From an uncultured Clostridia bacterium (GTDB lineage Bacteria; Bacillota; Clostridia; TANB77; CAG-508): 64,000 bases of DNA. The stretch is taken from positions 7,163 to 71,162 of the forward strand of contig CAKPDO010000002.1 of assembly GCA_934148985.1 (NCBI GenBank), read 5' to 3'. Within the stretch, counting starts at the first letter, position 1. Each line of letters opens with the position of its first letter. Of this stretch, positions 52,328 through 62,635 are shown one piece after another. Under the pieces are notes generated by a model. The model did no database searches, was not told where the DNA came from, and saw only the letters and a program-made list of their open reading frames with translations. Both the position numbers and the translations under genes were made by a program.

Positions 52328-54139
52328 TCAAATGTTTGTTCGGTGTTGGTTTTTGTTATATTTTGGAATGAGATATAAACATATATCCTTTACTTTGTTT
52401 AGATTAACCGATATTTCTTTTGGAACTTTAATATTAAACTCCTTCTCAATCGCAAGAATAATTTCAACTTTATCTAATGAATCTGCACCTAAATCATAAA
52501 TACTTGTTTCTTCACTTATCTGCTGTGCATCTATTCCAAGCTGTTTGCTTAATATTTCTTTCACGCTTTTTGTAATATCATTATCTATTACATCTTTTAA
52601 ACTTGAAGTTTGTTTATAGCTATGTAATCTTATTTTTTCTATTTCTTCTTTTCTTTTTATTTTTCCAGTAGGTGTTTTTAAAAGTTCTTCATTTGTTGCA
52701 TAAATAATATTTATCTTTTTATATGATGAAAAATCTTCATTTATTTTTCTTATTTGTTCCAATATTTCTTGTTTTTGTTCTAAGTTTTCACATACAATTT
52801 CAGCACAAATACAAACTTTATTTTCTCCTATTTTTTTATCAAAAACTAAAGACTCTTTTACTCCATCTATCTTGTTTATTATGGTCTCTACTTCTTCGGG
52901 AAATACTTTTTTCCCATTTGGCAATACTATCATGTTTTTTATCCTACCATGAAGAAATAAATATCCATCTTCATCTATTCGCCCCAAATCTCCTGTATAA
53001 AACCATCCATCTTTTAAAACTTGTTTTGTCGCTTCTTCATCTTGATAATATCCTAAAAATACATTTTCACCTTTAACTAAAATCTCTCCAATTCCATTTT
53101 CATCTTTATTTGCAAGTTTTAATTCAATATTAGGTACCACTTTCCCAACTGAATCCATTTTATGTAATTCTATATTACTCATACATACAACTGGAGCTGT
53201 TTCTGTTATTCCATATCCTTGCACTAAATTTATTCCTTTTTCTTTAAATGATTGTTCGATCTCTTCTTCAAGACTTGCACCACCGCTCATAAATATATTG
53301 ATATTTTTTTTATTGATTTCATCAATTCTTTTTAGCATATATTCATATACTGCTGGAACCGCTCCCATAAAAGATACATTATATTTGTTTATATCTTCTA
53401 CTATATCTTTTAAATCATGGCAATATATTCTTGTTGCACCTCTGTAAATAGTAAGCAATAAACAAAATAAACCTTCAAGCACATGATTTAATGGCAAAAC
53501 AGATAGTGCAATGTCATTACAGCTTATAGGAAATACTTGCGCTACATTTACTAAACTTACACAAACATTTTTATGTGATAGCATTACAGCTTTAGACTTT
53601 TCAGTAGTTCCTGACGTAAACATTATAAATCCAATTGATTCATTGTCTATTTTTGCATCTATAAACTCTTTATTTCCTGCTTCGATTAATTTTCTTCCTT
53701 CTTCTATTAATCTATTAAATGACATTGTCTTTTTTTCTTCAAAACAGATAATATATTTTAATCCCTCTATTTCTTGTTGAATATTCATTAAAATATTTTC
53801 ATATTTTTCGGAGCAGAAGATAGCCTCTACTTTTGCTCTTTTTAAAATAGTTGTTATTTCTTTTGGGACTAAAGATTTATCAAGTGGCACAGCAATTCCT
53901 GTACCATTTGTTATTGCAAAATATGCAATTTCCCATTCATATCTATTTTCTGAAATTATTGCAATCCTCTTATTTTTTAATCCCTTTTGGATTAATGAAG
54001 TTCCTAAACAATTAACTTTCTCTTGCATTTCTCTATAAGTTATTTCTTTATTACCTAATTTGTATAATGTTCTATTTGCATATTTTTCAACAGATTTTGA
54101 TAACATCTCTTTCAAATCTGTAATTTTTTCATTTTTCAT
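52328..54139 (-). CDS. Fatty-acyl-AMP/CoA ligase fused to a C-terminal acyl carrier domain
   Basis: 603 aa; FTSGTTEKSKAVMLSH, YGITETAP, TGDLGRIDEDGYLFLHGRIKN, then a carrier-domain Ser motif LGADSLDKVEIILAIEKEF. Confidence 0.8.
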   Translation of the reverse strand: MKNEKITDLKEMLSKSVEKYANRTLYKLGNKEITYREMQEKVNCLGTSLIQKGLKNKRIAIISENRYEWEIAYFAITNGTGIAVPLDKSLVPKEITTILKRAKVEAIFCSEKYENILMNIQQEIEGLKYIICFEEKKTMSFNRLIEEGRKLIEAGNKEFIDAKIDNESIGFIMFTSGTTEKSKAVMLSHKNVCVSLVNVAQVFPISCNDIALSVLPLNHVLEGLFCLLLTIYRGATRIYCHDLKDIVEDINKYNVSFMGAVPAVYEYMLKRIDEINKKNINIFMSGGASLEEEIEQSFKEKGINLVQGYGITETAPVVCMSNIELHKMDSVGKVVPNIELKLANKDENGIGEILVKGENVFLGYYQDEEATKQVLKDGWFYTGDLGRIDEDGYLFLHGRIKNMIVLPNGKKVFPEEVETIINKIDGVKESLVFDKKIGENKVCICAEIVCENLEQKQEILEQIRKINEDFSSYKKINIIYATNEELLKTPTGKIKRKEEIEKIRLHSYKQTSSLKDVIDNDITKSVKEILSKQLGIDAQQISEETSIYDLGADSLDKVEIILAIEKEFNIKVPKEISVNLNKVKDICLYLIPKYNKNQHRTNI

Positions 54140-54158
54140 AATTCGTACATTCCTTTAA

Positions 54159-56690
54159 TTATAATTTCTTTACTTTTCCTGTTGTACCATCAAATTCTAC
54201 TTCATCTCCGTCATTAAGATTGTTTAATAGTCCTGTTATTCCAACTACTGCTGGTATTCCCAATTCCCTAGATACAATTGCAGAATGTGATAATAAACTT
54301 CCCCTTTCTACTAAGATACCACTTGCTGCTGGGAATAGCATTATCCAACCTGGATCTGTGTATTCTGCCACTAATATTTCTCCTTGTTCTAACTTAGCAT
54401 TTGCTGGATTTCTTATTATTCTTACTTTTCCTGTTACTTTTCCAGGAGATGCTCCAATTCCTTTCAATTCTAATGATGCTTCTTTACTTTTTTCTTGTTT
54501 TTCATTTTTTCTTTTGAAATCATTTCCTATATTTACTGCTCCATATGAGTAAAATCTTTCATCTGGCACCGTTTCTTTATATTTTATATATTGTCTTTTT
54601 CTTATTTCTATTAATTCTCGTAAATTATTTGTAGTTGATTTTCCATCAATATAATATAAAATTTCATTTACTTCTAAAAAAAATATATCTCTTTTTTCAT
54701 CTATTACATTCATAGAGGTTAATATGTAACCTATTCTTAAGAAAATTTCTCTTACTCTTCCAAATAATCTCGTTCTTTCAAATCTAAGATTTTCTCTGTT
54801 TTTTACAGTAAATCTAGCATATTTTAGTGTAAAATTAAATTTTGCTTTTTCAACTGGTCTTAATTTTAGTATTTGTTTTACTTTCTTTTCTGCATTTATT
54901 CTTGCTTGTTCTGAATCTACTGATTCTATTTTCGCTTCTTTCATTCTATTTGCAAATGTTGATATTGAATGATACAAGCTTCTTGGATTATCCTTTAAAG
55001 TCTCAGTTTCCAATTTTAATTCTTGTAAACATCTATTTGAAAATTTGTCTAAATATTCGTTCAACTTCTTGTTGAATTTTGGATATTTAGGCAATTCTTT
55101 TTTTACAAATAGTATATTATCATTTTCTAACAAACTTATTAATTCATCATTATCCTTTGCTATACTCGCTAGTTCCTTTATTCTTTTGGCTGGTTCTGCA
55201 CTTATAATTCCACCTTCACTACACAACAAGTCATTATGAACTAAAATTCCATCTTCTTTAAAGATTTCTATACATTTTTGTTTTAATTGTCCATAAAAAA
55301 TCATTGCAAGGAAATCATTTACCAAAGGTGCATCCCATTTATGTAATAATCTACTTTCTAATTCGTAATAATAGTCATGTAATTCATATAAATCCATGTT
55401 TTCTATGTCTTTTTCTTCTAGAGCATCATTTAGTCTATCATAGAACTTCTCTGTCATTTTTTTTATCTTGAAAAATCCTTTTACTAGTCCATATCCTGTA
55501 CTTATTAATCCTAATTTATCCTTAAATGTTGCTTGTGGTACTGGAAATAAGTCATCTGGTAAAGATTCTTTTACTCCCATCATTTGTTCCATAAATTTTT
55601 TATTTTTTCCTAATCCTGGGAACATTGATAATAAGCCATACCATCCATATAAATTATAATAAACTCGTCCATCTATTAATGCTAACATATTTTTAAACAT
55701 TTGCGAATTCATCTCTATTTTTTCTTGTTTCACATTAAATATTTTACAAAGCTCTATGTAAACATTTTCATACACTGTTCTTATGAATGAAAATGTTAAT
55801 GGAGTTGTTATTCCTCCATAACTTTCAACAATATTACTATTATCAAAAACATTTATTTTTCCATTTTCATTTTTTCTGTTTCCTAATGTTGTTATTGGTC
55901 TTGATTGCAACAAATATAATTGTTCACCTTCATATGCCCATTCAATATCTTGATATCTTCCAAAAAAATCACTTGCTTTTTGTACTAATTCTTTTACCTC
56001 CAATATTTGCTCATCTGTTAAAACTTGTTTTTGTTTTAATTCTTCATCAACTTGTTTTTGTATAACCACATCATTTTCAAGTCTATGGCAAAAATCTTTT
56101 TCTGCAATCTCTTTTTTAACCTCATTATTTGAAATTGTATATGTATCTGATGTTGCAACTCCATCAACCAAGCCACTTCCTAATCCATATACTGCTGTAA
56201 CAACAACTTCTTTTACATTTGAATTTACAGGATTTGCACCAAATGCTACTCCAGCTTTTTCTGAATTCACCATTTTTTGAACTATAACTGATGGTATTGA
56301 TATTTCTTGAATATTGTTCTCTTTTCTGTATGTTTCTATTCTTTTCGAAAATGCTGACATATAAACTTCTTTTATTTTTTTAATAACATCATTTTTATTT
56401 ATGTACAAAAATGTGTCAAATTGTCCTGCAAATGATTTTTCTTTAGAATCTTCATTTACTGCTGATGATCTTACTGCAAAATATGTATCTTCTGAATACT
56501 GTTTTAATTTTTCTTGTATCTCATTTTTAACTTCATTTATTATAATTTTATTTTCTAAGTCAAATCCTTTATATGATACTACAAACCAGTTAGGAATATT
56601 ATCTACAATCATTCCAACTTTTGCTAAAGCTGTAGCTTTTCCTCCCATTAGTTCGTAATTTTTACTTGTGTTTTCTAATACATATTCCAT
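54159..56690 (-). CDS. PEP-synthase/RPH-like dikinase (N-terminal ATP-grasp PPDK_N, C-terminal swivel His domain)
   Basis: 843 aa; N-terminal GGKATALAK...AVRSSA..ED...SFAGQ. C-terminal GASPGKVTGKVRII...ILVAEYTDPGW...ILVERGSLLSHSAIVSRELGIPAVVG. There is no PEP/pyruvate-binding TIM-barrel domain. Confidence 0.75.
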   Translation of the reverse strand: MEYVLENTSKNYELMGGKATALAKVGMIVDNIPNWFVVSYKGFDLENKIIINEVKNEIQEKLKQYSEDTYFAVRSSAVNEDSKEKSFAGQFDTFLYINKNDVIKKIKEVYMSAFSKRIETYRKENNIQEISIPSVIVQKMVNSEKAGVAFGANPVNSNVKEVVVTAVYGLGSGLVDGVATSDTYTISNNEVKKEIAEKDFCHRLENDVVIQKQVDEELKQKQVLTDEQILEVKELVQKASDFFGRYQDIEWAYEGEQLYLLQSRPITTLGNRKNENGKINVFDNSNIVESYGGITTPLTFSFIRTVYENVYIELCKIFNVKQEKIEMNSQMFKNMLALIDGRVYYNLYGWYGLLSMFPGLGKNKKFMEQMMGVKESLPDDLFPVPQATFKDKLGLISTGYGLVKGFFKIKKMTEKFYDRLNDALEEKDIENMDLYELHDYYYELESRLLHKWDAPLVNDFLAMIFYGQLKQKCIEIFKEDGILVHNDLLCSEGGIISAEPAKRIKELASIAKDNDELISLLENDNILFVKKELPKYPKFNKKLNEYLDKFSNRCLQELKLETETLKDNPRSLYHSISTFANRMKEAKIESVDSEQARINAEKKVKQILKLRPVEKAKFNFTLKYARFTVKNRENLRFERTRLFGRVREIFLRIGYILTSMNVIDEKRDIFFLEVNEILYYIDGKSTTNNLRELIEIRKRQYIKYKETVPDERFYSYGAVNIGNDFKRKNEKQEKSKEASLELKGIGASPGKVTGKVRIIRNPANAKLEQGEILVAEYTDPGWIMLFPAASGILVERGSLLSHSAIVSRELGIPAVVGITGLLNNLNDGDEVEFDGTTGKVKKL

Positions 56691-62563: not shown

Positions 62564-62606
62564 AATAAACTCCTATTTTTTACTTTTTTCTCTATTCTCT
62601 AATATA

Positions 62607-62635
62607 TTTATAACATATTTATATGTTTTCTTCAA
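62607..62635 (-). promoter_or_regulatory. Promoter of the seven-gene lipid operon with a palindromic spacer (candidate operator)
   Basis: The minus strand reads TTGAAG-N17-TATAAA. The spacer contains the perfect palindrome AACATAT-tt-ATATGTT (62612-62627). Confidence 0.45.

What the first reader, a model, noticed from the sequence alone, without database searches (positions are those of the whole stretch)
52328..62635. Seven-gene operon predicting an undescribed lipid or lipid-linked metabolite pathway
Seven co-directional genes have 1-30 nt gaps and one promoter (62607-62635). The products are: a DUF3419/BtaA-like SAM-dependent 3-amino-3-carboxypropyl transferase; a polytopic protein of the CTP-dependent polyprenol/DAG kinase - cytidylyltransferase family; a GNAT-like acyltransferase; a stand-alone adenylating enzyme; a UbiA-superfamily prenyltransferase; an RPH/PpsA-like dikinase lacking the PEP-binding domain; and a fatty-acyl-AMP ligase fused to an acyl carrier domain. 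In established knowledge, BtaA makes the homoserine ether of betaine lipids (with BtaB, which is absent here), UbiA enzymes attach prenyl chains, and FAAL-ACP fusions feed fatty acids into lipopeptide or lipid assembly. My inference is that the product is an N-acylated, homoserine-type (aminocarboxypropyl) head group on a prenyl- or glycerol-based, phosphorylated lipid anchor. I do not recognise this combination as any characterised pathway (DGTS, ornithine lipid, plasmalogen, ether-lipid elb, aryl polyene and so on).
Basis: partly seen in the sequence, partly recalled or inferred. Interest (0 to 1): 0.78.

Follow-up and report, generated by a model that had tools for sequence, protein, structure and literature searches.

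The report
Conserved uncharacterised isoprenoid–aminocarboxypropyl lipid operon
A tightly packed operon in a gut Clostridia genome belongs to a six-gene cassette conserved across at least five bacterial phyla; its enzymes point to an unknown isoprenoid-anchored compound with an N-acetylated, methionine-derived amino-acid head group, and no paper I could find describes it.

Summary
The seven minus-strand genes are real, with gaps of 0-26 nt. Six of the seven domain calls pass profile searches. The polytopic protein g2 has no Pfam or NCBIfam hit of its own. Its link to the CTP-dependent polyprenol/DAG kinase family rests on homologues: one passes PF01148, two score just below threshold, and sources name others phytol, dolichol or polyprenol kinase. 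The last gene is an acyl-CoA-synthetase-like adenylation domain fused to a carrier domain; the FAAL label is not supported.

The conserved unit is six genes (g1-g6), colinear in about 29 Clostridia species with unrelated flanks. g7 is an accessory found in 12 of 29. The same six genes occur in a Vampirovibrio MAG, an Actinomycetota MAG, Brevibacillus laterosporus B9 and a Roseinatronobacter plasmid. Outside Clostridia the cassette is usually led by a class-I-like HMG-CoA reductase.

The DUF3419 protein always sits next to g2, never next to a BtaB methyltransferase, and belongs to a subfamily separate from true BtaA. g3 models as a tandem GNAT like small-molecule N-acetyltransferases; one lineage has a formyltransferase and no g3 homologue.

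Ten literature searches found no description. The product is unknown. My best reading is an isoprenoid-anchored conjugate with an N-acetyl-aminocarboxypropyl head group.

The parts
62607..62635 (-). Promoter-like site: TTGAAG, 17 nt, TATAAA, with TG before the second hexamer
   Evidence: Read directly from the sequence. It is the only intergenic position upstream of g1. It is not statistically distinguishable from background in this AT-rich DNA.
61451..62563 (-). g1: DUF3419 (BtaA-like) SAM-dependent transferase of the g2-paired subfamily, 370 aa
   Evidence: PF11899 at 6e-65 over profile positions 4-383 of 385. Motifs such as SIASAGEN, GKFE.YF, NLSDIFEY and YWN are conserved across phyla. Cassette orthologues score 243-332 bits against g1; BtaB-paired BtaA score 86-101 bits. 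It is always adjacent to g2.
60104..61450 (-). g2: polytopic membrane protein, 448 aa. The N-terminal ~215 aa resemble CTP-dependent polyprenol/DAG kinases; the C-terminal half is variable.
   Evidence: No Pfam or NCBIfam hit for the window protein. Family member P0141 passes PF01148 (26.3 bits against 24). The Vampirovibrio and Brevibacillus orthologues score 20.7 and 18.1 bits. Sources name homologues 'diacylglycerol/polyprenol kinase family protein', 'phytol kinase' and 'dolichol kinase'. All 16 invariant residues lie in residues 33-211. The AF2 model has pLDDT 84 and about 16 helices. The family has 1565 clusters at E<=1e-30.
59169..60095 (-). g3: tandem-GNAT N-acyltransferase, most likely an N-acetyltransferase, 308 aa
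   Evidence: Acetyltransf_1 at 1.9e-9 over residues 191-288. The AF2 model has pLDDT 93.5. Best Foldseek matches are glucosamine N-acetyltransferase 5kf1 (E 1e-13, TM 0.63), MAB_4324, MshD and the clavulanate tandem GNAT.
57655..59142 (-). g4: stand-alone ANL adenylate-forming ligase, 495 aa
   Evidence: AMP-binding at 2e-38. Nearest NCBIfam model is PRK09274 (272 bits, cut-off 478), followed by the OleC beta-lactone synthetases. The motifs TSGTTGKPK, YGSTEA and a C-terminal Lys are present. It follows g3 directly, often with overlapping stop and start, in almost every cassette; L049/L050, which lack a g3 homologue, are the exception.
56708..57652 (-). g5: UbiA-superfamily intramembrane transferase, 314 aa
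   Evidence: PF01040 at 2.8e-17 (63 bits against 34). Nearest NCBIfam model is PRK13592. Remote matches to chlorophyll synthase and DGGGP synthase. The first motif DEFKDYEED...RPVPRG is conserved. The second motif region, EIxRK...DE..GV.TY, is conserved but non-canonical.
54159..56690 (-). g6: Rph/PigC-type His-swivel dikinase without a PEP/pyruvate-binding domain, 843 aa
   Evidence: PPDK_N at 1e-57 and PEP-utilizers mobile domain at 7e-24. Rph_4th is on record for the identical protein. Best PDB match is Listeria rifampin phosphotransferase 5fbs/5hv1, 6.5e-70. The motifs GGKATAL and SLLSHSAIVSRELGIP are present, and the protein ends after the swivel domain. It scores below the equivalog cut-offs for PpsA, Rph, PigC and RedH.
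52328..54139 (-). g7: acyl-CoA-synthetase-like adenylation domain fused to a carrier (PP-binding) domain, 603 aa. Accessory; not part of the conserved core.
   Evidence: AMP-binding at 9e-69 and PP-binding at 3e-12, with a GADSL serine. Nearest solved structures are FadD13, luciferases and 4CL. It is present after g6 in 12 of 29 Clostridia species and absent from the cassettes in other phyla.

Best explanation
g1-g6 form a self-contained, horizontally spread biosynthetic cassette. It most likely builds a membrane-embedded isoprenoid conjugate whose polar part carries a SAM-derived 3-amino-3-carboxypropyl ('homoserine-type') group with an N-acetylated amine.

Proposed roles, all inferred from family membership:
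- g5 (UbiA) ionises an isoprenoid diphosphate in the membrane and alkylates an acceptor.
- The kinase-like N-domain of g2 and the His-swivel dikinase g6 carry out the phosphoryl transfers. Either they convert a lipid alcohol stepwise into a phosphate or diphosphate, as VTE5 and VTE6 do ahead of a UbiA enzyme in plants, or they phosphorylate the product.
- g1, which never occurs without g2, transfers the aminocarboxypropyl group from SAM to a hydroxyl or phosphate oxygen of the lipid that g2 makes or holds.
- g3 N-acetylates the new amine. One lineage has a formyltransferase and no g3 homologue.
- g4, adjacent to g3 and often with overlapping stop and start, adenylates a carboxylate for ester, amide or thioester formation. 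Candidates are the head-group carboxylate or an acid to be attached.
- g7, where present, loads an extra acyl group onto its own carrier domain.
- In most non-Clostridial lineages a class-I-like HMG-CoA reductase leads the operon, tying it to mevalonate or isoprenoid chemistry.

Shown here: gene structure, domain identities, the fold of g3, cross-phylum co-conservation, and the g1-g2, g3-g4 and g5-g6 adjacencies. Inferred: every substrate, the order of steps and the nature of the product.
For: - Gene structure and domains.
- g1-g6 are colinear in all Clostridia loci with enough flank. Flanking genes differ from species to species, so the six genes move as a unit.
- The same six genes occur in a Vampirovibrio MAG (L038), an Actinomycetota MAG (L041), L054, L055, Brevibacillus laterosporus B9 (L056) and a Roseinatronobacter sp. 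S2 plasmid (L057). Matches are near full length, with E-values from 1e-12 to 1e-150 or better.
- Three adjacent pairs persist through rearrangements: g1-g2, g3-g4 and g5-g6. The order is HMGR-g1-g2-g3-g4-g5-g6 in some lineages and HMGR-g5-g6-g1-g2-g3-g4 in others.
- g1-g2 also occur as a pair without the other cassette genes (L048 and L053). P0193 appears to be a DUF3419-g2 fusion.
- An HMG-CoA reductase is adjacent in L037, L041, L049/50, L054, L055, L056 and L057. The Brevibacillus copy keeps the catalytic-looking motifs.
- g3 has a tandem-GNAT fold like glucosamine N-acetyltransferase and MshD. L049/50 have no g3 homologue but end with an ArnA/Fmt-like formyltransferase. Both fit a free amine that is capped.
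- The link between g2 and PF01148 kinases runs through homologues and source names.
Against: - No product is known and no enzyme in the cassette has been assayed.
- g2 itself fails every profile search. Its model has no significant fold match; TmCdsA ranks only 33rd, at E 2.2.
- g1 shares only about 22-24% identity with BtaB-paired BtaA, so its chemistry may differ, for example methyl transfer.
- The second Asp-rich region of g5 is non-canonical, so g5 need not be a standard prenyl-diphosphate transferase.
- The cassette contains no glycerol-backbone enzyme and no obvious acceptor-making enzyme.
- The Clostridial version lacks the HMG-CoA reductase within 10 kb, so that enzyme is not needed for the core chemistry.
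- Patchy distribution, plasmid location and a P450 in Brevibacillus fit a specialised metabolite as well as a membrane lipid.
Confidence: 0.4

Rival explanations
1. The cassette is a specialised-metabolite gene cluster for a small, possibly secreted prenylated molecule, such as a signal or antibiotic, rather than a membrane lipid. Mevalonate from the HMG-CoA reductase, or a SAM-derived homoserine unit, would be the scaffold. g4 with g3 would activate and N-acylate it, as the fungal mevalonyl-CoA ligase SidI and transacylase SidF do, or g4 would lactonise it in the manner of OleC. g5 would prenylate it and g6 would phosphorylate or activate it as PigC does.
For: The distribution across phyla is patchy. 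The cassette sits on a plasmid in Roseinatronobacter and on a large plasmid-labelled replicon in Brevibacillus, and its flanks vary. A cytochrome P450 overlaps the 3' end of the ligase gene in Brevibacillus. After PRK09274, the nearest NCBIfam relatives of g4 are beta-lactone synthetases. g6 scores about 320-335 bits against the PigC and RedH models. The HMG-CoA reductase has no other mevalonate-pathway gene next to it in these operons.
Against: Two of the six core proteins are polytopic membrane enzymes, g2 and g5. g1 is tied to g2 in every locus seen. The pair also occurs without the rest of the cassette, which suggests it acts on a pre-existing membrane lipid. About 29 related gut Clostridia species keep the cassette, which looks more like a maintained cell function than a strain-specific antibiotic. 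The SidI/SidF and OleC analogies come from my own knowledge and were not tested.
Confidence: 0.25
2. The cassette makes a polyprenyl-phosphate-linked donor used to decorate the cell envelope. This would work like undecaprenyl-phosphate-aminoarabinose in the Arn pathway or decaprenyl-phosphoryl-ribose made by the UbiA-family enzyme Rv3806c. g2 would supply polyprenyl phosphate and g5 would couple it to a diphosphate-activated head group made with the help of g6. The amine would be transiently N-acetylated or N-formylated, as in ArnA chemistry.
For: g2-family homologues are named polyprenol or dolichol kinases. The formyltransferase in L049/50 is closest to the ArnA and Fmt N-domains. In L053 the g1-g2 pair lies beside an EboC-like UbiA fused to a DedA/UptA-like undecaprenyl-phosphate-transporter domain, together with a phosphodiesterase. 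BacA lies about 5 kb downstream of the cassette in L054.
Against: No glycosyltransferase, GT-C transferase, flippase or deacylase is conserved with the cassette. The UbiA subfamily is not the DPPR-synthase type in any test run here. The L053 and L054 neighbours are single observations.
Confidence: 0.15
3. It is a variant of the classical betaine-lipid (DGTS/DGHS) pathway. g1 would act as BtaA on diacylglycerol to replace phospholipids under phosphate limitation, and the other genes would be unrelated neighbours.
For: g1 is a full-length DUF3419 protein. BtaA is the only characterised activity of that family that I know of.
Against: There is no BtaB methyltransferase in the operon or in any cassette. 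True btaA-btaB pairs carry a different DUF3419 subfamily, scoring 86-101 bits against 243-332 bits for the cassette type. The five partner genes are co-conserved with g1 across phyla, so they are not chance neighbours.
Confidence: 0.03

Closest known systems
BtaA/BtaB pathway for the betaine lipid DGTS (Rhodobacter, rhizobia, algae)
   Same: g1 is a full-length member of the same Pfam family (DUF3419, PF11899) as BtaA, the SAM:diacylglycerol 3-amino-3-carboxypropyl transferase. A lipid hydroxyl as acceptor is a reasonable analogy.
   Different: There is no BtaB. g1 is paired with a polytopic kinase-like protein instead. It belongs to a separate subfamily and sits among UbiA, dikinase, GNAT and ligase genes that DGTS synthesis does not need. 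The amine is probably acetylated or formylated rather than trimethylated.
Phytol salvage in plants and cyanobacteria: VTE5 (CTP-dependent phytol kinase), VTE6 (phytyl-phosphate kinase), then the UbiA-family enzymes VTE2/HPT or chlorophyll synthase
   Same: The logic is the same: a CTP_transf_1-type membrane kinase, a second phosphorylating enzyme and a UbiA-family transferase. g5 has remote hits to chlorophyll synthase and DGGGP synthase. Two g2-family members hit DUF92, the VTE6 family by my knowledge, at about 5e-4.
   Different: The second phosphorylating enzyme here would be an Rph-type His-swivel dikinase, not a DUF92 protein. g2 is adjacent to g1, not to the UbiA gene. Nothing in the salvage route corresponds to g1, g3 or g4. 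No substrate was tested.
Rifampin phosphotransferase (Rph) and the prodiginine ligases PigC/RedH
   Same: g6 has the same three-part architecture: ATP-grasp domain, substrate-binding domain (Rph_4th) and C-terminal phosphohistidine swivel domain, with no PEP/pyruvate barrel. Its best solved match is Listeria Rph.
   Different: g6 scores far below the equivalog cut-offs for Rph (316 against 999), PigC (335 against 1300) and RedH. It is always next to a UbiA gene. The substrate is unknown.
Tandem-GNAT small-molecule N-acetyltransferases (C. acetobutylicum glucosamine N-acetyltransferase, mycothiol synthase MshD)
   Same: The g3 model superposes on these over its full length, with TM about 0.6 and E from 1e-13 to 1e-10. 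Only the C-terminal GNAT matches the acetyl-CoA-binding Pfam profile. From my own knowledge, MshD likewise binds acetyl-CoA productively only in its C-terminal domain.
   Different: Sequence identity is only 10-14%. The substrate is unknown. g3 sits directly upstream of an adenylating enzyme, often with overlapping stop and start.
ebo cluster (EboC UbiA-like prenyltransferase with cyclitol-forming enzymes)
   Same: It is another cross-phylum, horizontally spread operon centred on a UbiA-family enzyme with an unknown lipid-like product. In L053 the g1-g2 pair lies next to ebo-like genes: an EboC-like UbiA, a DHQ-synthase-like gene and a phosphodiesterase.
   Different: Apart from UbiA-superfamily membership the gene content is entirely different. 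g5 does not match the EboC model.

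Membership tests
DUF3419 / BtaA family (PF11899) | Full-length match to the family profile above the gathering score | tested here: met
   220.3 bits against a cut-off of 28.2, profile positions 4-383 of 385.
DUF3419 / BtaA family (PF11899) | Orthology with BtaA of DGTS operons: adjacent BtaB methyltransferase and the same subfamily | tested here: not met
   No methyltransferase gene in the operon. BtaB-paired DUF3419 from Rhizobium and Chondrinema score 86-101 bits with g1, against 243-332 bits for cassette orthologues in other phyla.
DUF3419 / BtaA family (PF11899) | SAM-dependent 3-amino-3-carboxypropyl transfer, with methylthioadenosine released | not testable with these tools
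   Needs an enzyme assay or labelled-methionine feeding.
CTP-dependent polyprenol/DAG kinase - cytidylyltransferase family (PF01148 CTP_transf_1) | Profile match of the window protein g2 | tested here: not met
   No Pfam or NCBIfam hit at E<=10 or E<=1, for the full-length protein or the N-terminal 230 aa.
CTP-dependent polyprenol/DAG kinase - cytidylyltransferase family (PF01148 CTP_transf_1) | Homology shown through family members | tested here: inconclusive
   P0141 (E 8e-121 to the g2 profile) passes PF01148 at 26.3 bits against 24. The Vampirovibrio and Brevibacillus orthologues score 20.7 and 18.1 bits. None of 70 representatives hits PF01148 at 0.01, and two hit DUF92. Source names are polyprenol, phytol and dolichol kinase.
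CTP-dependent polyprenol/DAG kinase - cytidylyltransferase family (PF01148 CTP_transf_1) | Fold similarity to a solved member (TmCdsA) | tested here: inconclusive
   Foldseek with the full 447-aa model places 4q2g at rank 33, E 2.2, probability 0.44. PDB sequence-profile searches found nothing.
GNAT superfamily (tandem-GNAT N-acetyltransferases) | GNAT profile match and a two-GNAT fold | tested here: met
   PF00583 at 38.2 bits against 20.7. The model has pLDDT 93.5. Best matches are 5kf1, 7q3a, 1ozp and 2wpw, with E from 1e-13 to 1e-10.
ANL adenylate-forming enzymes (g4 and g7) | AMP-binding profile and core motifs | tested here: met
   g4 scores 132.6 bits and g7 232.6 bits against a cut-off of 29.9. 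TSGTT(G/E)K-type motifs are visible.
Fatty acyl-AMP ligase (FAAL) subtype, for g7 | Closest relatives are FAALs rather than CoA ligases | tested here: not met
   The top NCBIfam models are long-chain-fatty-acid-CoA ligase and MenE types. The top solved structures are FadD13, luciferases, 4CL and oxalyl- or malonyl-CoA synthetases. The FAAL-specific insertion was not examined directly.
Acyl/peptidyl carrier domain (g7 C-terminus) | PP-binding profile and phosphopantetheine-attachment serine | tested here: met
   PF00550 at 46.9 bits against 20.8. The LGADSLD motif is present.
UbiA superfamily (PF01040) | Profile match above the gathering score | tested here: met
   63.3 bits against 34.2.
UbiA superfamily (PF01040) | Two Asp-rich Mg-diphosphate-binding motifs | tested here: inconclusive
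   The first motif, DEFKDYEED...RPVPRG, is conserved in 13 cross-phylum orthologues. The second region reads EIxRK...(D)E..GV.TY and lacks the usual first Asp. The canonical motif is recalled from memory, not from a reference alignment.
Rph/PigC-type PEP-utilising-family dikinase without PEP-binding domain | ATP-grasp (PPDK_N), Rph middle domain and C-terminal phosphohistidine swivel domain, with no PEP-utilizers_C barrel | tested here: met
   Searches give the domains. The His motif SLLSHSAIVSRELGIP is present and the protein ends 35 residues after it. Best PDB match is 5fbs/5hv1.
Rifampin phosphotransferase, PEP synthase, PigC/RedH (as equivalogs) | Score above the curated equivalog cut-off | tested here: not met
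   Best model PRK06241.2-2 scores 715 against 883. Rph scores 316 against 999, PigC 335 against 1300 and RedH 321 against 1350.

The most novel reading that the evidence does not exclude
The cassette defines a previously unrecognised class of bacterial isoprenoid-anchored amphiphiles, found in several phyla, that carry an N-acetylated (or N-formylated) aminocarboxypropyl head group derived from SAM. The route would combine three features not described together. A DUF3419 transferase would depend on a polyprenol-kinase-like membrane partner. A lipid alcohol would be activated by a CTP-type kinase plus an Rph-type His-swivel dikinase, feeding a UbiA enzyme. And a class-I HMG-CoA reductase, with no other mevalonate-pathway gene beside it in these operons, would have a role specific to this pathway. 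In herbivore and human gut Clostridia, whose version lacks the reductase, the isoprenoid could come from the MEP pathway or from dietary prenols such as phytol.
Probability: 0.3. Interest if true: 0.85.

Novelty: new variant of a known kind. Interest (0 to 1): 0.7.

Why it matters
If the product is a new lipid or lipid-linked metabolite, it would add a head-group chemistry to bacterial membranes: an acylated homoserine-type group on an isoprenoid. It would give a function to a large, unannotated membrane-protein family; the g2 family has about 1565 clusters at 50% identity with E<=1e-30. It would also give a function to a distinct DUF3419 subfamily, and explain why an HMG-CoA reductase travels in this operon without other mevalonate-pathway genes beside it.

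The carriers include many uncultured Clostridia from human, ruminant, rabbit and poultry guts, so the product could matter for host-microbe lipid exchange. The cassette also exists in cultured strains, Brevibacillus laterosporus B9 and Roseinatronobacter sp. S2, so genetics and lipidomics can test the question directly.

Tried and rejected
- Direct annotation of g2. Pfam and NCBIfam gave nothing at relaxed E-values. PDB profile searches with two alignments gave nothing. Foldseek on the AF2 model gave no significant match. The family call rests on homologues only.
I used hits from a second homologue search instead.
- Promoter and terminator scans are uninformative at 27% GC. Rfam finds no riboswitch or leader before the operon.
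- Ten literature searches found no description of the cassette. They covered DUF3419, BtaA with UbiA, BtaA-like, BtaA with polyprenol kinase, Rph with UbiA, HMG-CoA reductase with UbiA and PEP synthase, Brevibacillus with prenyltransferase, aminocarboxypropyl with prenyltransferase, and others. The one apparent 'BtaA' hit was a DOI string. The library lacks most subscription journals, so absence is not proof.
- The DGTS reading is rejected: no BtaB and a different subfamily.
- The FAAL label for g7 is rejected.
- g3 as an AcuA/Pat-like protein-lysine acetyltransferase regulating the neighbouring ligase was considered. The AcuA sequence hit is insignificant (E 0.38), and the fold matches small-molecule tandem GNATs. 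I judge it unlikely but have not excluded it.
- Genes downstream of g7 in other species (Tim44-like, racemase, ROK, UvrB, MutS2) are unrelated, so the cassette ends at g6 or g7.
- An N-acyl-homoserine-lactone-like signal (SAM-derived homoserine, N-acylation, ligase-driven lactonisation) was considered only as a sub-case of the small-molecule rival. Nothing tests it.

Full report
**Observation**

The region holds seven co-directional minus-strand ORFs:

| Gene | Coordinates |
|---|---|
| g1 | 61451-62563 |
| g2 | 60104-61450 |
| g3 | 59169-60095 |
| g4 | 57655-59142 |
| g5 | 56708-57652 |
| g6 | 54159-56690 |
| g7 | 52328-54139 |

The gaps between them are 0, 8, 26, 2, 17 and 19 nt. In this 26-28% GC DNA, promoter-like matches are as frequent as in shuffled sequence (102 against 96.9), so only its position speaks for it. 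No terminator-like site follows g7. The next gene, a Y-family polymerase at 50788-52287, starts 40 nt later behind its own promoter-like site at 52331-52303. Rfam finds no leader RNA in front of the operon.

**Domain calls**

Profile searches confirm six of the seven.
- g1 is DUF3419, at 220 bits.
- g3 has a GNAT in its C-terminal half.
- g4 is a stand-alone AMP-binding enzyme. Its nearest NCBIfam model is PRK09274, followed by the OleC-type beta-lactone synthetases, all below cut-off.
- g5 is UbiA, at 63 bits against 34.
- g6 has PPDK_N, Rph_4th and the mobile phosphohistidine domain. It carries the motif SLLSHSAIVSRELGIP and has no PEP-binding barrel. Its best solved relative is Listeria rifampin phosphotransferase.
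- g7 is AMP-binding plus PP-binding, with a GADSL serine.

Two corrections are needed. First, the adenylation domain of g7 is closest to acyl-CoA synthetases, 4-coumarate ligases and luciferases, so 'FAAL' is not supported. Second, g2 has no Pfam or NCBIfam hit at any threshold. PDB profile searches found nothing. Its AF2 model (pLDDT 84, about 16 helices) has no significant fold match; TmCdsA ranks 33rd at E 2.2.

- Family member P0141 passes PF01148 at 26.3 bits against a cut-off of 24.
- The Vampirovibrio and Brevibacillus orthologues score 20.7 and 18.1 bits.
- Sources name homologues 'diacylglycerol/polyprenol kinase family protein', 'phytol kinase' and 'dolichol kinase'.
- All 16 invariant residues of the family (E33, R36, K37, H40 ... 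D129, G136, E155, G156, E198, G204, D206, N207, P211) lie in the N-terminal 215 residues.
- The C-terminal half is variable and is missing in some members.

The g2 family is large and unannotated: 7185 representatives at E<=1e-3 and 1565 at E<=1e-30.

**Co-conservation**

The window comes from an animal-gut Clostridia genome. Identical contigs appear in human gut metagenomes. A genome scan with the g2 profile returned 42 loci. tblastn with the seven proteins shows g1-g6 colinear in every Clostridia locus with enough flank. That is about 29 species, from human, sheep, rabbit, chicken and other guts. Their flanking genes differ from species to species, so the six genes move as a unit. g7 follows g6 in only 12 of the 29.

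The same six genes occur in other lineages with near-full-length, significant matches:
- a Vampirovibrio MAG (L038)
- an Actinomycetota MAG (L041)
- two unplaced lineages (L054, L055)
- cultured Brevibacillus laterosporus B9 (L056)
- a plasmid of cultured Roseinatronobacter sp. S2 (L057)

Partial versions also exist.
- L049/50 lack g3 but end with an ArnA/Fmt-like formyltransferase.
- L051 lacks the dikinase.
- g1-g2 occur without the other cassette genes in a Thermoanaerobaculia MAG (L048) and in L053, where they lie beside ebo-like genes.
- Short WOR-3 and Chitinophagales contigs show g1-g2 before the contig ends.

Three adjacent pairs persist through rearrangements: g1-g2, g3-g4 and g5-g6. 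One representative appears to be a DUF3419-g2 fusion.

**An extra member outside Clostridia**

In L037, L041, L049/50, L054, L055, L056 and L057 the operon begins with an HMG-CoA reductase. These copies are 50-62% identical to one another. It is class-I-like, scoring 332 bits against TIGR00533, below the 441.8 cut-off. For the Brevibacillus copy, the best solved match is an archaeal reductase, and the TTE, GDAxGxNM, GTVGGGT and RAH motifs are present. No copy lies within 10 kb in any Clostridia locus or in the window. A DXP synthase gene lies on the source contig. Brevibacillus adds a cytochrome P450 that overlaps the end of the ligase gene.

**What the parts say about the chemistry**

g1 is not an orthologue of BtaA from DGTS operons. 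In Rhizobium leguminosarum and Chondrinema litorale the DUF3419 gene is followed by a small class-I methyltransferase, the btaA-btaB arrangement. Those proteins score 86-101 bits with g1. Cassette-type proteins from other phyla score 243-332 bits.

g3 models with high confidence (pLDDT 93.5) as a tandem GNAT. It superposes on C. acetobutylicum glucosamine N-acetyltransferase, MAB_4324, mycothiol synthase MshD and the clavulanate tandem GNAT (E from 1e-13 to 1e-10, TM about 0.6). These enzymes acetylate a primary amine of a small polar molecule. With the formyltransferase found in the one lineage that lacks g3, this suggests an intermediate with a free amine that is capped. Aminocarboxypropyl transfer from SAM would create such an amine.

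g5 keeps the first Asp-rich motif (DEFKDYEED...RPVPRG). Its second region is conserved but non-canonical (EIxRK...DE..GV.TY).

**Most likely mechanism**

All substrates and the order of steps are inferred. The proposed product is a membrane-embedded isoprenoid conjugate.
- g5 uses an isoprenoid diphosphate.
- The g2 kinase-like domain and the g6 dikinase perform phosphoryl transfers on a lipid alcohol or on the product. The logic resembles VTE5 and VTE6 feeding a UbiA enzyme.
- g1, working with g2, adds the aminocarboxypropyl group.
- g3 N-acetylates it.
- g4 adenylates a carboxylate for further linkage.
- g7, where present, loads an additional acyl group.
- The HMG-CoA reductase in other lineages ties the pathway to mevalonate or isoprenoid chemistry. 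Its exact role is open: precursor supply, mevalonate as a building block, or reduction of a g4-made thioester.

I put 0.4 on this general picture and much less on any specific structure.

**Rivals**

| Reading | Confidence | Main argument |
|---|---|---|
| Specialised, possibly secreted small molecule | 0.25 | Favoured by the patchy, plasmid-borne distribution and the P450 |
| Polyprenyl-phosphate-linked donor for envelope decoration | 0.15 | Favoured by the kinase naming, the ArnA-like formyltransferase and the UptA/EboC neighbourhood in L053; no transferase or flippase is co-conserved |
| Classical DGTS | 0.03 | No BtaB; different DUF3419 subfamily |

Chance juxtaposition is excluded by the conservation.

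**Novelty**

Ten full-text searches found no paper describing this gene set. RefSeq names the Roseinatronobacter genes only generically: 'UbiA family prenyltransferase', 'PEP/pyruvate-binding domain-containing protein', 'DUF3419 family protein', two 'hypothetical protein' and 'AMP-binding protein'. The library misses most subscription journals, and antiSMASH/MIBiG could not be run, so prior description cannot be fully excluded.

Every enzyme family is known. The combination, the g2-paired DUF3419 subfamily and the unannotated g2 family are not. I rate it a new variant of a known kind (a lipid or metabolite biosynthetic operon built around a BtaA-like enzyme). It would move up if the product proves to be a new lipid class.

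**Verdict**

Interest is 0.7. The cassette is widespread, unexplained and directly testable in cultured carriers.

Noticed in passing
L056 6872-8332; L055 7607-8890; L041 424-1719; L054 3753-5066; L049 7617-8903; L037 1-735; L057 2-466: A class-I-like HMG-CoA reductase leads the cassette in most non-Clostridial lineages, including Brevibacillus laterosporus and a Roseinatronobacter plasmid, with no other mevalonate-pathway gene next to it. It is absent from the window and from all Clostridia loci. Its role is unexplained: precursor supply, mevalonate as a building block, or reduction of another thioester.
   Followed up: partly
L053 289-7614: The DUF3419-g2 pair lies divergently next to ebo-like genes: an EboC-like UbiA fused to a DedA/UptA-like domain, a type I phosphodiesterase and a DHQ-synthase-like gene. 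This is a second, different UbiA-centred lipid cluster.
   Followed up: partly
P0193 (654 aa, metagenome protein): The C-terminal part of a DUF3419 domain is joined in one ORF to a full g2-type membrane protein. This may be a natural g1-g2 fusion, or a gene-calling artefact at a contig end.
   Followed up: no
L056 17034-18260: In Brevibacillus laterosporus B9 a cytochrome P450 gene overlaps the 3' end of the cassette's AMP-ligase gene, which suggests an extra oxidative tailoring step there. An ETX/MTX2 toxin-family gene lies about 900 bp further downstream.
   Followed up: no
window 37899-37970 (-): Rfam finds a skipping-rope RNA motif (50.6 bits, gathering score 36.7) immediately upstream of the 740-aa ORF at 35583-37805.
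   Followed up: no
window 50788-52287 (-): A Y-family (IMS/DinB-like) polymerase of 499 aa lies 40 nt downstream of g7 with its own promoter-like site (52331-52303). The Pfam IMS domain spans residues 11-196 for a 148-position profile, so the catalytic core carries an insertion. In the source contig a 72-aa ORF overlaps its end.
   Followed up: no
window 62779-63132 and 63129-63371 (+): Two small overlapping ORFs (117 and 80 aa) are transcribed divergently from the operon and have no Pfam hit on record. The 117-aa ORF, the only one searched for, was found only on contigs carrying proteins identical to the window's (L001-L003), not in the 81-87% identical relatives.
   Followed up: partly
window 1-64000: Every one of the 34 large, non-nested ORFs of 150 aa or more upstream of the operon, and the operon itself, is on the minus strand. 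GC skew is negative throughout (cumulative -8.9), so the whole window appears to lie on one replichore with genes co-oriented. The single tRNA, tRNA-Trp at 1805-1879, is on the plus strand.
   Followed up: no
L038 11588-14995 (-): In the Vampirovibrio MAG an Aas-like fusion (MFS transporter, PlsC acyltransferase and AMP-ligase) converges on the end of the cassette. A truncated UbiE-like methyltransferase lies upstream.
   Followed up: no
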